This document shows, one piece after another, positions 41,200 to 61,068 of a DNA stretch of 64,000 nucleotides. The notes beneath the pieces were generated by a model. It was not told the origin of the DNA and did no database searches. It saw nothing but the letters and a program-made list of their open reading frames with translations. The stretch comes from Eledone cirrhosa (Eukaryota). Both the position numbers and the translations under genes were made by a program. The stretch covers positions 297,290,001 to 297,354,000 of the forward strand of contig OZ024742.1 in assembly GCA_964016885.1 (NCBI GenBank), given 5' to 3'. The first letter of the stretch is position 1. Every line of letters starts with the position of its first letter.

Positions 41200-41433
41200 T
41201 ATCTGTTTTGTGCCTCCTCTTTTTCTTGGTCTTAAATTTCAGACATGCATTAATATCCAACCCCATTCTGTTTCACACTATATCTGTGCAATTACATATA
41301 TTTACATACATATATATATATATATATGGATGTATATATAATGTATTTTGCAATACACTTTATGCTTAATTAAAAGCATTTTGAAGACCGTATGCTATTG
41401 TTTTAGAGTAGTGACAAATTCACTTACTTTAAT

Positions 41434-41522
41434 CTCAGCAAACAGGGGAGATAAGCGGACAAGGCCTTGTTTCGCATTTATTGATGCTTATCAAGGCTAA
41501 CTACTCCCTCCTGTCTGCTGAG
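41434..41522 (-). ncRNA. Type-I hammerhead ribozyme (U3-A8 variant), inverted copy
   Basis: Reverse complement of 41732-41820. Confidence 0.75.
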
Positions 41523-41731
41523 ATCACTGATGTATATTCTTATAGAATTCTAGTAAATAATCAGGAACTGATTATACAGAACGGTTGTTGGTCAGGCAAA
41601 AATTAAAAATATATATATTGCTATTTCAGAGCTCCAATTCTAATTTTTTATTTCTGCCTGACCAACAACCGCTCTGTATAATCAGTTCCTGATTATTTAC
41701 TAGAATTCTATAAGAATATAACATCAGTGAT

Positions 41732-41820
41732 CTCAGCAGACAGGAGGGAGTAGTTAGCCTTGATAAGCATCAATAAATGCGAAACAAGGCCTTGTCCGCT
41801 TATCTCCCCTGTTTGCTGAG
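41732..41820 (+). ncRNA. Type-I hammerhead ribozyme, U3-A8 core variant
   Basis: UUGAUAA (41760-66), stem II gcau/augc, GAAAC (41781-85), palindromic stem III ACAAGGCCUUGU, GUC^ at 41796. Extended stem I cucagcagacagg/ccuguuugcugag. C-C mismatch at 1.1/2.1. Confidence 0.78.
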
Positions 41821-41961
41821 ATTAAAGTAAGTGAATTTGTCACTAATCTAAAACAATAGCATACGGTCTTCAAAATGCTTTTAATTAAGCATAAAGTGTA
41901 TTGCAAAATACATTATATATACATCCATATATATATTGCTATTTCAGAGCTCCAATTCTAA

Positions 41962-42040
<79 letters not shown>

Positions 42041-42045
<5 letters not shown>

Positions 42046-45000
42046 TCATCACCGTTTTACGTCCGTTCTTCCACGCTAGCATGGGTTAGACGGGTTGTCC
42101 TGTTGTGGGCAGTGTCTGGTCGGCTGACCATGCCTTGCTCATACAGGAACTGATCTGGCTTGATTTCTACAGCTGGATGCCCTTCCTAACACCAACCTCA
42201 TTTACAGTGAGTGCTGGGTGCTTTTTCGTGGCGCCTACACGTCCACTTTACAGTGTGGGCTGGGTGCTTTTTTGCCGTGGCACCTCCACGACCACCTTGC
42301 GGTGGGGGGGGGGGGCATATTGTTTATATGCTTCAGCATGTACCCATGGGAGGTCGGGTACCCTGTATTACTGCGTGACGCCAGAAGTCACGGTCGTGTG
42401 TCATTGACTTTGAGAGGTGTAGTTGGGTAAGGTCGGCTTTTATCACCTCATCCCAAGTCATCTTGGGTCTCCCCACTCCGCGGTTTCCATCAACTTCTAG
42501 TGCTCTGCACCTTTTTATGCAGCTGTCATCCTTCATACGCATCACATGTCCATACCAGCGTAACCGCCTCTCCTGCACGCAGCATTTGATTCCTCTTATG
42601 CTCAGTCTCTCTCTCAATTCATTTATGCTTTGTCGTTCACGTATATTACTGTTACACATCCATCGGAGCATGCAGGCTTCGTTTCTCTCTAATCTACGTA
42701 GGTCTTCCACCTTCAGCGCCCAGGTCTCACTACCATGCAACATCGCTGTTCGGATACACGCATCATACAGTCTGCCTTTCATTCTGAGGGAGAAGCCTTT
42801 TGCAGCTAGCAGTGGTAGTAGTTCCCTAAACTTCTTCCATCCCGTTCTTACCCTAGTTATTGTACTTTCTGAGCACCCACCTCCGTTGCTAATTCGGTCA
42901 CCTAGGTAGCAGAAGCTGTCTACTGTTTCTACAGGGCCCTCCCAGAGATTGGTGGTACTTGTTTCCTGTGGCTGTTTGCTTGCTGTTTCAGCACAGCTGC
43001 TGCATGTGAATCCTACATTCTTAATTAAGCTTCCTGAGATCCCGCTACATCTCTTGTGTACCCATTGTTTGCATTTGGGGCAAAGAATGGAGTTCCTACC
43101 TACACCTTTCCTACATACTGAGCAAGGCCATTTCCCTGAGGGGATCTGGGTTCTGTTTTCTCGTCTACTTATAAGGACCTTAGTCTTTGTCATGTTGACT
43201 TTGAGGCCCTTTCTCTCTAGTCCCTGCTTCCAGGTTTGGAATTTATTCTCTAGTTCTACCATAGATTCAGCTATGAGTGCGAGGTCATCAGCATACAGGA
43301 GTTCCCATGGGCATCCGGTCTTAAACTCCTCCGTTATTGCCTGCAGGACTATGATGAACAGGAGAGGGCTAAGAACAGAGCCCTGGTGGACCCCAACCTG
43401 TACGCTAAATTCCTCGCTATACTCATTGCCAATCCTAACTTTGCTGACTGCTCCCCTATACATGGCTTGTACCGCTTTCACAAGCCATTCATCTACTCCT
43501 AGTTTTCTAAGAGCCCACCAGATTACTGCACGTGGAACTCTGTCAAAGGCTTTCTCAAGGTCGACAAATGCCAAGTAGAGTGGCTTACTTTTAGCTAGGT
43601 ACTTTTCCTGTAATTGCCTCACAAGGAAGAGCGCATCAGTGGTGCCTTTCCCTGGTACAAACCCAAATTGCATCTCGTCTATATTCACCCGGTCCCTAAT
43701 CAGCTGTGCTATAACTCTTTCTGTTACTTTCATGACCTGGTCCATCAACTTTATACCTCTATAGTTTCCTCTATCTAGTGCATCGCCTTTACCTTTGTAG
43801 CAGTTGACAATGATGCTACTGCACCAATCTTTTGGTATGGCCCCCTCTAGTATTACCTGGTTAACGATACGTGTGGTTATAGTGTGACCTACAGACCCAG
43901 ATGCCTTCAGCATCTCGGCAGCTATACCCGATGGACCGGTTGCCTTCCCTATCTTCATATCTCTGATTGCCTTACTTACTACGCTGCCGCTGACTTGTAC
44001 TGCTGGTCCCTCTATAGGGTCTACGTGGGGTAGGGTCTCTTCTTCCCATGCATTCTCCTCATTTAGTAATCTATCATAATGACTCTTCCATGCATCTTTC
44101 TTCTCAGCACTTGTGAGGGCAAGCTCACCTTTATCATTCCGGATACACTTCTCTCCAATGACATCACAACTATCTCTGACACACTGCCTCGCAATCTTGA
44201 ATACCTCCTGTTTCTGGTCCTCACGTTGTAAAACATGCTTGAATTTTCTATCCTCTGCTTCCCTCCTAGCTAAGTATACTTGTCGCCTAGCTTCCCTCTT
44301 GGTCTCTATGTAATGTACCCTGCTCCCCCCGTTCTTCCATTCTTTCCATGCCTGTCTCTTGGCCTTGACTGCTTCATCTACCTTATTGTTCCACCACCAA
44401 GTCACTCTCCTCCTGCTTGAGGTCTTACTCCAGCCACAAACCTCATCCGTCGCCTCTAGTAAGTTATTTTTTAGGAACTCCCAGTTCTCTTCTACGTTAA
44501 ATGTCTCTATCTGTTCTTCTTTACTGTCGTAGGCGTTGAGTAAAATATCTTTAAATCTGTTACTGGTTGAGGGGACTTTCAGCTTCCAGATCTTTCTTCT
44601 CCAGGTTGGCCTCTGTTTCAGGGCTCGTCTAGTTCTGACCGTGAGGTCGCTGACAACTAAGCTATGTTGGGATGTACATTCCTCACTAGGGAAGGCTTTT
44701 GTGTTTACGACCGTCCATCTGTCACGTCCTCTGATGAGGATAAAATCTAACTGACTAGAGTGCTCCCCTGATCTATAGGTGATCAGGTGGTTGTCGGGTT
44801 TTTTAAAGTTTGTGTTACATATCGACATGTCATTGGCGTCGCAGAATTCTAGAAGTCTGAATCCTTCCTCATTCCTTGTGCCAACTCCATGGCCTCCATG
44901 TACTCTATTGAAGCCGTCGCAGTGTTTACCTACGTGTCCGTTAAAATCTCCTGCAATGATTAGGAAGTCCTTGTCGTCTGTTAGAGCAGTAGTGTGTATT

Positions 45001-45460
45001 AGGGACTCGTAAAACCTATCCTTAAGTTCGTCTGGCAGCCCCGATTGGGGTGCGTAAGCTGATATTATTGTGGTAATTGTCTTATTCAGGACTAGTCTGA
45101 GTTTAATGATTCTTGCATTTACCCTGTACACTGAGATTACTTTATCTACCCACTTGTCAGCTAATAGTATACCTACACCACCCATCCCATCGTCATTTCC
45201 CACCCAGAAAAATTTGTAGCACTGGCTTTTTCCTACAAGGACTCTAGCAGACCCTCCTCTCCATCTAGTCTCTTGCACACAGCATACATCAACTTCCTTT
45301 CGCTCTAGCATTTCTACGATTTCTCCTGCTCTTCCTTTCATTGAGCCTACATTGATGGTACCAACTCGGAGTTTTGGGCATTTGTCGACACTCGTAGGGG
45401 AGGGTCTCTGGGTTGGCGCTTCACGTGGGTGCTTGGTAGCTCGCAGATTCATATTTCATA
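42041..45460 (-). mobile_element. Near full-length RTE-clade LINE inserted in (TA)n
   Basis: Single ORF plus a roughly 290-bp 3' UTR ending ...CCCATGCTAGCGTGGAAGAACGGACGTAAAACGGTGATGATGA. TA runs on both sides. Confidence 0.95.
42333..45452 (-). CDS. RTE LINE polyprotein: AP-like endonuclease, reverse transcriptase and a PHD-like zinc finger (1039 aa, uninterrupted)
   Basis: APE motifs GTINV, CVQETRW, SAYAPQ, GDFNGHVG, DFILI, SQH. RT motifs NYRGIKL, QFGF, FVDLEKAFDRV, GVHQGSVLSPLLF, YADDLAL, FCYLG. Cys cluster CSVC...CPKC...HKRC...CSSC. Confidence 0.96.
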   Translation of the reverse strand: MNLRATKHPREAPTQRPSPTSVDKCPKLRVGTINVGSMKGRAGEIVEMLERKEVDVCCVQETRWRGGSARVLVGKSQCYKFFWVGNDDGMGGVGILLADKWVDKVISVYRVNARIIKLRLVLNKTITTIISAYAPQSGLPDELKDRFYESLIHTTALTDDKDFLIIAGDFNGHVGKHCDGFNRVHGGHGVGTRNEEGFRLLEFCDANDMSICNTNFKKPDNHLITYRSGEHSSQLDFILIRGRDRWTVVNTKAFPSEECTSQHSLVVSDLTVRTRRALKQRPTWRRKIWKLKVPSTSNRFKDILLNAYDSKEEQIETFNVEENWEFLKNNLLEATDEVCGWSKTSSRRRVTWWWNNKVDEAVKAKRQAWKEWKNGGSRVHYIETKREARRQVYLARREAEDRKFKHVLQREDQKQEVFKIARQCVRDSCDVIGEKCIRNDKGELALTSAEKKDAWKSHYDRLLNEENAWEEETLPHVDPIEGPAVQVSGSVVSKAIRDMKIGKATGPSGIAAEMLKASGSVGHTITTRIVNQVILEGAIPKDWCSSIIVNCYKGKGDALDRGNYRGIKLMDQVMKVTERVIAQLIRDRVNIDEMQFGFVPGKGTTDALFLVRQLQEKYLAKSKPLYLAFVDLEKAFDRVPRAVIWWALRKLGVDEWLVKAVQAMYRGAVSKVRIGNEYSEEFSVQVGVHQGSVLSPLLFIIVLQAITEEFKTGCPWELLYADDLALIAESMVELENKFQTWKQGLERKGLKVNMTKTKVLISRRENRTQIPSGKWPCSVCRKGVGRNSILCPKCKQWVHKRCSGISGSLIKNVGFTCSSCAETASKQPQETSTTNLWEGPVETVDSFCYLGDRISNGGGCSESTITRVRTGWKKFRELLPLLAAKGFSLRMKGRLYDACIRTAMLHGSETWALKVEDLRRLERNEACMLRWMCNSNIRERQSINELRERLSIRGIKCCVQERRLRWYGHVMRMKDDSCIKRCRALEVDGNRGVGRPKMTWDEVIKADLTQLHLSKSMTHDRDFWRHAVIQGTRPPMGTC

Positions 45461-45522
45461 TATATATATATGAGAGACGTAAAATAAGAAAATTATAAAA
45501 TTAACTTACTTACTAAAATATC

Positions 45523-45604
45523 ACTTCCAACTAATTAGTTTCTGGAATGGAATAAATATATTTTCCGAAGAAGATACAGAGAAGCATTCCGTCGTCAGGG
45601 AGGT
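45523..45604 (-). ncRNA. Type-I hammerhead ribozyme
   Basis: accucc-CUGACGA-cggaaug...cauucca-GAAAC-uaauua-GUU^ggaagu. Predicted cut between 45529 and 45528. Confidence 0.82.
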
Positions 45605-46285
45605 CTATTCTCATCTAAGTATCCAGGCAAAGCGTGGACACTGGAAACTTATTAAAAAATAATTCAGTGGATAGGAAATAGCAAAGCGTGGACTGAATTC
45701 CTAGCCATTGAGAAAATCACTGCCTCTGCGTCGGTGGCAAATTCAAAAAGAATCAATCACGTGACATCGAGGTCAATCAGTGGAAAGTGGTTTGCTAATA
45801 AGACAGCGGCCTGCTACCATAGCAGCAGTCATGGCCAATATTGCTCGACAAATAATTTGGAGATAATTATGAAGATTTAATATCTAGTAACATATATATA
45901 CATACAGATGCATATCAATGCTAGCAAATATATAGGTTTTGTCTTAGTAACTTTGTGGTTCAATGCATGGGGTTGCAGAACAATAATATGAGAGACGTAA
46001 AATAAGAAAATTATAAAATTAACTTACTTACTAAAATATCACTTCCATTGGCCATGACTGCTGCTATGGTAGCAGGCAGGCTGCTGTCTTATAAGCAAAC
46101 CACTTTCCACTGATTGACCTCGATGTCACGTGATTGATTCTTTTTGAATTTGCCACCGACGCAGAGGCAGTGATTTTCTCAATGGCTAGGAATTCAGTCC
46201 ACGCTTTGCTATTTCCTATCCACTGAATTATTTTTTAATAAGTTTCCAGTGTCCACGCTTTGACTGGATACTTAGATGAGAATAG

Positions 46286-46367
46286 ACCTCCCTGACGACG
46301 GAATGCTTCTCCGTATCTTCTTCGGAAAATATATTTATTCCATTCCAGAAACTAATTAGTTGGAAGT
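46286..46367 (+). ncRNA. Type-I hammerhead ribozyme (inverted copy)
   Basis: CUGACGA 46292-98, GAAAC 46348-52, palindromic stem III AACUAAUUAGUU, GUU^ at 46361, stem I accucc/ggaagu. Confidence 0.82.
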
Positions 46368-46561
46368 GATATTTTAGTAAGTAAGTTAATTTTATAATTT
46401 TCTTATTTTACGTCTCTCATATTATTGTTCTGCAACCCCATGCATTGAACCACAAAGTTACTAAGACAAAACCTATATATTTGCTAGCATTGATATGCAT
46501 CTGTATGTATATATATGTTACTAAATATTAATTCTTTATATATATATATATATATATATAT

Positions 46562-60530: not shown

Positions 60531-60537
60531 TATTTTG

Positions 60538-61068
60538 AGAATAAACTCTCAGTCGTTTACAATAATTAAGCTCCAGGAAGGGGCTCTTCCGAGCAGTTAA
60601 ATACATTTAAAATATATGATAAACACGAAATGTGTTTATATTGCAACAGACAAAGTTAGCTATTAATGAAATAAACTAATTAAAGTGAATACAATTTGTC
60701 TGTCTCGATACAAGTCAATAAAGACAAGCTTATAATTTTACTGGATTCCTGTTGATAAGCACAGAAGATTTGGATATTTCACTCTTTTATTTCTATTCCA
60801 TTTCGATTCTCTTTATTTTTCAATTCACATTCCACCGTTGCGAAACTTATTTGGGTTTCGAGGTTCAAATTCGTCTACAGAACAGGTTTGAATTTTGAAA
60901 TTTAAATATGTCCAGGAATCATGGCCGTTGCCAATATAAGCTTGTCTTTATTGACTTGTATCGAGACAGACAAATTGTATTCACTTTAATTAGTTTATTT
61001 CATTAATAGCTAACTTTGTCTGTTGCAATATAAACACATTTCGTGTTTATCATATATTTTAAATGTAT
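60538..61068 (+). mobile_element. HHR-bearing fold-back non-coding retroelement in (TA)n
   Basis: 134-bp inverted repeats at 60601-60734 / 60935-61068 enclosing a hammerhead. Confidence 0.85.
60744..60920 (+). ncRNA. Type-I hammerhead ribozyme, U3-A8 variant with long stem III and a large loop II
   Basis: gauuccug (60744-51), UUGAUAA, gca..77 nt..ugc, GAAAC (60842-46), a 24-bp G-U-rich stem, GUC^ (60910-12), caggaauc. Perfect 8-bp stem I. Confidence 0.85.

What the first reader, a model, noticed from the sequence alone, without database searches (positions are those of the whole stretch)
41327..41968. 640-bp palindrome with a 318-nt terminally redundant monomer and a hammerhead on each strand
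Seen: arms of about 275 bp differ at only a few positions and the spacer is repeated after the right arm. The HHR has the less common UUGAUAA core, a self-complementary stem III (ACAAGGCCUUGU) and a long stem I with an internal loop. Established: palindromic short stem III allows dimeric cleavage in minimal PLE hammerheads. Inference: transcription from either direction gives both a long dsRNA hairpin (a Dicer or ADAR substrate) and a ribozyme, whose folding would compete.
Basis: partly seen in the sequence, partly recalled or inferred. Interest (0 to 1): 0.78.

Follow-up and report, generated by a model that had tools for sequence, protein, structure and literature searches.

The report
Retrozyme copy with Penelope insertion footprint
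The palindrome is real but ordinary for its family: it is one of hundreds of copies of a 318-base repeat carrying a hammerhead (self-cutting RNA) motif, most of which lie as two head-to-head arms with a short tail at one end only, a layout likely left by a borrowed Penelope retrotransposon enzyme, and this particular copy is likely a dead end.

Summary
Observation confirmed. Arms 41318-41610 and 41643-41936 are 98% alike. There is a 43-nt repeat at period 318 and one type I hammerhead per strand. The locus is not special. It belongs to a non-coding family with 385 exact core matches genome-wide and satellite arrays of at least 79 and 94 units. Of 73 pattern-picked loci, 53 are head-to-head and none tail-to-tail, nearly all in (TA)n. 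One arm ends at unit base 10 and the other 26-33 nt further (the Penelope 'tail') in 68 of 72 scorable loci. An autonomous Penelope-like element here does the same (8 of 8). The 'terminal redundancy' is just a 1.13-unit arm. The hammerhead fold is supported by covariation across sister families, including the U3-A8/C3-G8 swap. The C-C 1.1/2.1 mismatch is nearly private to this locus (4 versus 385) and sits in both arms. With one ribozyme per strand, buried by the hairpin on read-through, this copy likely cannot make a circle. Verdict: new member of the animal non-LTR retrozymes. Cleavage, expression and the partner enzyme are untested or not found. The scan noted the same layout in other genomes.

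The parts
41318..41610 (-). Inverted, 5'-truncated arm (unit bases 35 to 10 of the next unit), ending at the tail-less end site A in (TA)n
41430..41526 (-). Type I hammerhead in the left arm, same sequence as in the right arm including C at 1.1 (window 41457)
41611..41642 (+). Loop of the palindrome = first bases of the right arm (unit bases 3-34, which include the tail sequence), not copied in the left arm
41609..41969 (+). Direct arm, 1.13 units of the 318-nt repeat (non-coding, 33% GC)
41728..41824 (+). Type I hammerhead: core 41760-41766 (U3-A8), stem II 41767-41780, palindromic helix III 41784-41795, predicted cut after 41796, C1.1-C2.1 mismatch 41797/41759
   Evidence: sequence; covariation
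41937..41969 (+). One-sided Penelope-type 'tail' (unit bases 11 to 36-43), end site B
   Evidence: tail 25-mer has 6387 exact matches genome-wide
41308..41327 (.). (TA)n target, left; overlaps the arm end
41968..42043 (.). (TA)38 target, right; no other target duplication discernible

Best explanation
This is one dispersed copy of a non-coding 318-nt hammerhead-bearing tandem repeat family (an animal non-LTR retrozyme), and its palindrome is likely the footprint of insertion by a Penelope-like element's reverse transcriptase/GIY-YIG endonuclease acting in trans. Shown: multicopy family, tandem units up to satellite arrays, (TA)n targets, scattered 5' truncation, head-to-head arms, two fixed 3' ends 26-33 nt apart used once each per insertion, both arms from the same subfamily, and a covarying hammerhead fold. 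Inferred: a PLE protein binds a multimeric or circular RNA, nicks (TA)n and copies the RNA across uncut ribozyme sites. The second arm is made in the same event from the same template information, more likely by fold-back or template switch onto the new cDNA with the far end fixed at the other tail site (about 0.5) than by priming both DNA strands at the two sites (about 0.3). The arms are joined by short microhomology. Inferred for this copy: it has one ribozyme per strand, a mismatch beside the cut site, and a hairpin that would bury the ribozyme on read-through, so it is likely unable to release a monomer or circle.
For: Family: 1627 candidates, 40 scored, 96-98% identity; 385 exact core matches; arrays of at least 79 and at least 94 units. 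Layout: 53 head-to-head, 19 single, 1 complex, 0 tail-to-tail of 73 loci taken from the first 100 of the 385 matches. End rule A+B: 38 of 38 (pattern set) and 17 of 21 (similarity set), 13 of 13, so 68 of 72 with both ends at a canonical site. An autonomous RT+GIY-YIG element shows two ends 40 nt apart, one each in 8 of 8 head-to-head pairs read. The same anatomy is published for PLEs (PMC8557442, PMC3846280 passages), and two internal RT start sites explain the tail in vitro (PMC11167929). Arms differ at 6.5% of subfamily-diagnostic cells versus 42.6% between loci. 54 of 172 arms cross two or more predicted cut sites. Nested arms: 28 of 35 versus 20.7+-2.6 under a permutation that keeps the ascertainment. 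Covariation in 21 sequences: 3-8 pair UA 16 / CG 5; 1.1-2.1 UA 16 / CG 3 / other 2; all 4 stem II pairs change on both sides; 0 of 500 shuffles reach the score.
Against: No autonomous partner found: the unit has no DNA similarity to PLEs in 50 GIY-YIG loci (the hits were other retrozyme copies) or to the full Penelope-type element (score 30, shuffle maximum 35). The published non-autonomous partners usually share pLTR or 3' sequence. Eight of 52 A+B loci are incompatible with pure fold-back, and the sign test for small offsets was weak (Fisher p 0.07). Nearest-neighbour folding prefers an inactive monomer fold in all 5 sequences tried (by 4.8-9.2 kcal/mol). The centre junction was not seen in other samples. 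The covariation alignment holds related sequences, so the shuffle counts are not probabilities.
Confidence: 0.85

Rival explanations
1. The element is only the truncated pLTR end of an autonomous PLE that I did not sample, so the copies are stubs and not an independent retrozyme.
For: Same end architecture as PLEs; head-to-head PLE stubs are described (PMC4209133 part 1: dual motifs 100-700 bp apart on opposite strands). Only 50 of 150 listed GIY-YIG places (10596 candidates) were examined.
Against: Copies continue 5' into further 318-nt units, never into an ORF in the same sense, in 126 family loci mapped. Arrays of 79 or more and 94 or more pure units exist. The longest stop-free frame is 41/52 aa.
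Confidence: 0.07
2. The locus is a selected, host-used switch in which hairpin formation (siRNA or editing substrate) competes with self-cleavage.
For: The arms are more alike (98%) than the family average for arms (about 3.6% divergence at non-diagnostic sites) and share a near-private base, which could reflect gene conversion.
Against: The layout is the family default. The shared base breaks a covarying ribozyme pair. The insertion junction is absent from the other samples laid. Youth or a mutated template explains the arm identity equally well.
Confidence: 0.05
3. The palindrome is an assembly or library fold-back artefact.
For: The centre junction was not covered in 4 of 4 runs.
Against: The arms differ at 5 places, both flanks are unique, and the ends follow a rule shared with 68 of 72 loci and with an unrelated autonomous element.
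Confidence: 0.03

Closest known systems
Metazoan non-LTR retrozymes (Cervera and de la Pena 2020, PMC7229834, passages and sections 13-14 read; Li, Clavereau, Pollet 2026 preprint 10.64898/2026.07.22.740005, parts 1-3 of 5 read)
   Same: 150-450 bp non-coding, low-GC tandem units, each with a type I hammerhead, dimers to long arrays, no LTR/PBS/PPT, PLEs in the same genome; mussel units are 350-390 bp.
   Different: U3-A8 core and a 4-bp palindromic helix III. Most dispersed copies are head-to-head with a one-sided tail, which I did not see described for retrozymes in the parts read. No pLTR homology to a PLE found. Circular RNA and cleavage not shown.
Complex insertions of endonuclease-positive Penelope-like elements (Arkhipova 2013 PMC3846280 and Craig 2021 PMC8557442, passages; Frangieh 2024 PMC11167929, parts 1-2 of 4)
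   Same: Partial tandems, inverted 5'-truncated copy head-to-head, 30-40 bp tail usually at one end, (TA)n targets, hammerhead upstream of the ends.
   Different: No ORF; the unit is 318 nt; the tail is 26-33 nt; the mobilising family is unidentified.
Minimal hammerheads of metazoan PLE pLTRs, including the U3-A8 variant (Cervera and de la Pena 2014, PMC4209133, parts 1-2 of 4)
   Same: Type I order, U3-A8 covariation, palindromic helix III/loop 3 suited to dimers. Several PLE families of this genome also carry U3-A8 cores.
   Different: Not minimal: long stem I with internal loop, 4-bp stems II and III.

Membership tests
Non-LTR retrozyme | Short (150-450 bp) low-GC unit in tandem, dimers to multimers | tested here: met
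   318 nt, 33% GC; 1-6 unit arms; arrays of at least 79 and 94 units
Non-LTR retrozyme | Type I hammerhead in each unit | tested here: met
   61 copies aligned; covariation across sister families; Rfam only weak
Non-LTR retrozyme | No protein coding, no LTR | tested here: met
   Longest stop-free frame 41/52 aa; the 43-nt redundancy is not a fixed terminal repeat
Non-LTR retrozyme | Self-cleavage in vitro | not testable with these tools
   Folding alone prefers an inactive monomer fold and favours a dimer duplex
Non-LTR retrozyme | Expressed as linear and circular monomer RNA | not testable with these tools
Non-LTR retrozyme (active copy, two complete hammerheads in tandem, Li et al. definition) | [quoted passage not shown] | tested here: not met
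   One hammerhead per strand, each with the C-C mismatch; met by other family loci
EN+ PLE-type insertion | Inverted 5'-truncated copy, head-to-head | tested here: met
   53 of 73 loci, 0 tail-to-tail
EN+ PLE-type insertion | Two alternative 3' ends (tail), usually at one end only | tested here: met
   68 of 72
EN+ PLE-type insertion | AT-rich / (TA)n target | tested here: met
   Flanks printed
Non-autonomous derivative of a specific PLE | Sequence shared with the pLTR or 3' end of an autonomous PLE | tested here: inconclusive
   None found in 50 GIY-YIG loci or the full Penelope-type unit; sampling incomplete
Autonomous PLE | RT + GIY-YIG ORF | tested here: not met
   No ORF in the unit
Minimal PLE hammerhead (min-HHR) | Helix III absent or 1-2 bp, short helix I | tested here: not met
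   4-bp helix III plus tetraloop and a long helix I

The most novel reading that the evidence does not exclude
This family gives direct anatomical evidence that animal retrozymes are inserted by Penelope machinery, and it exposes a strict rule of the unsolved PLE insertion cycle: each event uses both tail sites once (68 of 72), builds both arms from one template lineage, and tends to nest one arm inside the other, as expected if the second arm is a fold-back copy resolved at the opposite tail site. A 318-nt RNA with no sequence match to any PLE found would then be a minimal, structure-recognised substrate for testing that cycle in vitro.
Probability: 0.35. Interest if true: 0.55.

Novelty: new member of a known kind. 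Interest (0 to 1): 0.3.

Why it matters
The locus itself matters little. The family matters modestly. The retrozyme-PLE link is argued in print from shared hammerheads, co-occurrence and pLTR trees (PMC7229834; preprint 10.64898/2026.07.22.740005), whereas here the insertion footprint itself is PLE-type and countable. How PLEs make tandem/inverted insertions and a one-sided tail is stated as open (PMC8557442, PMC11167929), and a short high-copy substrate with a near-absolute one-tail rule makes competing models testable. Several hundred such hairpins, and thousands for the wider tail-sharing group, would also be a sizeable potential source of double-stranded RNA if transcribed, which is untested. 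Six searches showed no paper on this family or on counted end pairing. The library lacks most subscription papers and Repbase, and the preprint's supplements could not be seen.

Tried and rejected
Rfam at gathering score: nothing. tRNA head: none. Bacterial promoter scan: uninformative. Partner PLE by DNA similarity: none; apparent neighbours of the Penelope-type family only share (TA)n targets. Period-2 signal that would point to dimer circles: absent, since neighbouring units are most alike (lag 1 2.5%, lag 2 2.8%; patterns 110/011/101 = 49/37/21). Ribozyme-less 163-bp derivative as a mobile subfamily: rejected, all 4 matches lie in one locus. General gene conversion between arms: not seen (3.6% versus 3.5% between loci). 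Excess of 5' ends just downstream of the cut site (26 of 172 in unit bases 189-215, expected 14.6, p 0.003, window chosen after looking): cannot separate cleaved templates from RT stalling at stem I. Strand skew of one pattern (419/269): not traced. A paper search on the effect of a 1.1-2.1 mismatch gave no usable listing, so that effect is recalled knowledge plus covariation. The Atlas look-up of the PLE protein gave only generic RT/GIY-YIG clusters. No look-alike earlier finding by sequence.

Full report
Observation. The inverted arms are real: 41318-41610 and 41643-41936, five differences in about 293 columns, around a 32-nt loop. A 43-nt direct repeat at period 318 (41609-41651 / 41927-41969) makes the right arm 1.13 units long. 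Each arm holds a type I hammerhead in normal strand order: long stem I with an internal loop, core UUGAUAA, 4-bp stem II, GAAA, self-complementary ACAAGGCCUUGU, GUC site, and C opposite C at 1.1/2.1. Rfam gives nothing at gathering score and only E 0.23 to Hammerhead_HH9. The centre junction was not covered in the 4 runs laid on it, three of which are one sample, so independent read support for this locus is lacking. The family itself is present in runs of the same species label and of a second organism.

Family. The genome is a 3.0-Gb animal assembly. That it looks like an octopus is my recollection from its repeats and comes from no call. A DNA search gave 1627 candidates; 40 were scored, at 96-98% identity. 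An exact 26-mer over the cut site has 385 matches with G at 1.1 and 4 with C, two of which are this locus's arms. In 61 aligned ribozyme copies, 58 have G there. The unit is 33% GC with no frame over 52 codons. Arms run from under 100 nt to about 6 units, and two satellite arrays hold at least 79 and 94 units. About five subfamilies are visible. A sister family with the canonical CUGAUGA core shares 71-79% identity and the same ends, and the 25-nt tail has 6387 exact matches.

Insertion anatomy. I took every locus among the first 100 of the 385 matches (73 loci, contigs C1 and C2): 53 head-to-head, 19 single-arm, 1 complex, none tail-to-tail. Arms end at one of two sites, unit base 10 (A) or 36-43 (B), running into (TA)n. 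Where both outer ends are at a canonical site, one is A and the other B in 38 of 38 of that set (15 more had one non-canonical end), 17 of 21 of a similarity-picked set of 33 loci (3 B+B, 1 A+A), and 13 of 13 of 20 further long loci. The total is 68 of 72, against about half if the ends were independent. Class A was scored with tolerance (bases 312-20) because the end merges with the microsatellite. An autonomous RT+GIY-YIG element in this genome has two ends 40 nt apart and uses one each in 8 of 8 head-to-head pairs read by eye. This matches the published PLE layout of an inverted 5'-truncated copy plus a 30-40 bp tail, often at one end (PMC8557442 passages; PMC3846280 passages), and the in vitro finding that a PLE protein nicks and extends both strands from two internal RNA start sites that bracket the tail, without needing ribozyme cleavage (PMC11167929 parts 1-2 of 4). 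The finding's locus is a typical A+B case whose two 5' truncation points happen to lie 34 nt apart.

How the second arm arises. Both arms carry the same subfamily haplotype: 6.5% discordance at diagnostic cells, versus 5.0% between tandem units and 42.6% between loci. So they come from one template lineage, though one master active at a time would look the same. Fifty-four of 172 arms cross two or more predicted cut sites, so the template was an uncut multimer or a ligated circle; these data do not separate the two, and no period-2 signal was found. One arm lies within the span of the other in 44 of 52 A+B loci, and in 28 of 35 of the pattern set against 20.7+-2.6 in ascertainment-matched permutations. 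5' starts fall within 35 nt of each other in 21 of 52 (expected 11.6). This leans to fold-back copying for part of the events, as Arkhipova 2013 suggested from junction palindromes, but 8 of 52 do not fit it and the finer sign test was weak. Junction overlaps of a few bases are the rule.

The ribozyme. In 21 sequences from family A and its sister families, the tertiary 3-8 pair is U-A in 16 and C-G in 5 with no exception, the 1.1-2.1 pair is U-A in 16, C-G in 3 and unpaired in 2 (one is this locus), and all four stem II pairs change on both sides. The sequences are related, so the shuffle control overstates significance. Helix III plus loop is fully self-complementary in 12 of 21 and one mismatch away in 9; the outer loop pair swaps AU/GC, which a monomer hairpin does not need and a dimer does. 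Folding programs prefer an inactive monomer fold by 4.8-7.5 kcal/mol in four other copies and 9.2 in this one; they ignore tertiary contacts. The U3-A8 core is a described PLE variant (PMC4209133 parts 1-2 of 4) and occurs in several PLE families of this genome. That a 1.1-2.1 mismatch lowers cleavage is recalled knowledge; my search gave no usable paper.

This copy. The two ribozymes are on opposite strands, so neither strand has the two sites needed to release a monomer. Read-through from either flank makes the antisense arm first, and the full hairpin (-498 kcal/mol) far outweighs the right arm's own fold (-92); only transcription starting at the centre would leave a ribozyme free. The C1.1 change is in both arms, so it was in the template or spread by conversion. 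If it was in the template, an impaired ribozyme did not prevent insertion, in line with the in vitro PLE result. Expression, small RNAs and editing are untested.

Partner. The genome has at least seven RT+GIY-YIG clusters. None shares DNA similarity with the unit in 50 loci examined or in the full Penelope-type element. Three chimeric head-to-head junctions with three different PLE families are a lead only, since sequential insertion with target loss would look alike.

Comparison and novelty. It works like, and meets the sequence-testable criteria of, an animal non-LTR retrozyme (PMC7229834 passages and sections 13-14; preprint 10.64898/2026.07.22.740005 parts 1-3 of 5, supplements not seen). 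Cleavage and circular RNA could not be tested, and this single locus fails the two-ribozymes-in-tandem criterion for an active copy. It is not an autonomous PLE and its hammerhead is not the minimal type. I found no paper on this family or on counted end pairing (one listed paper, PMC10886601, was irrelevant on reading passages). The scan's own unchecked notes report the same layout in other genomes; they agree with but did not shape the reading, which I had set down before looking. The scrambled hammerheads noted elsewhere in this genome are described with another strand order; this one is in normal order. Verdict: new member of a known kind; interest 0.3, carried by the family-level end rule rather than by the locus.

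Noticed in passing
G000:C3:114931000-114956700 and G000:C2:207697800-207727800 (L283-L291): Satellite arrays of the same family, at least 79 and at least 94 hammerhead units (the first runs off one end of the stretch taken, the second off both). Helix III reads ACAUGUCAUGU, a double change that keeps self-complementarity.
   Followed up: partly
L016:1857-1870, L207:2585-2620, L221/L257:3860-3890: Three head-to-head junctions join a retrozyme-group arm directly to a 5'-truncated PLE arm, each PLE from a different family; two have a short fold-back piece at the joint (172 loci scanned, some duplicates). They could be co-insertions or sequential insertions with target deletion.
   Followed up: partly
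L257:3870-4510: Four tandem 163-bp units lacking the whole ribozyme, with a tailed end in (TA)n; single locus; one junction base alternates between units.
   Followed up: yes
genome-wide: A wider group of about 315-nt units shares the 25-nt tail (6387 exact matches) but carries different hammerheads, including a sister family with the canonical CUGAUGA core (2719 candidates) and the same two ends.
   Followed up: partly
L253-L258: Apparently active Penelope-type element: 900-905 aa open frames, near-identical copies, 37508 candidates, head-to-head pairs with a 40-nt one-sided tail.
   Followed up: partly
window 42333-45455 (-): Intact 1040-aa LINE frame (endonuclease + RT) with a PHD-finger match at residues 778-821, above the Pfam cut-off.
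   Followed up: no
window 45468-46540 and 60535-61068: Two further head-to-head palindromic insertions in (TA)n within the same window (arms of 376+180 bp at 98%, and 134 bp at 100%), unrelated in sequence to the finding.
   Followed up: no
A family pattern gave 419 forward versus 269 reverse matches while neighbouring patterns were balanced; probably another array, not located.
   Followed up: partly
L034, L041, L066, L070, L071, L075: Other hammerhead-bearing short repeats with longer helix III appear near PLE loci.
   Followed up: no
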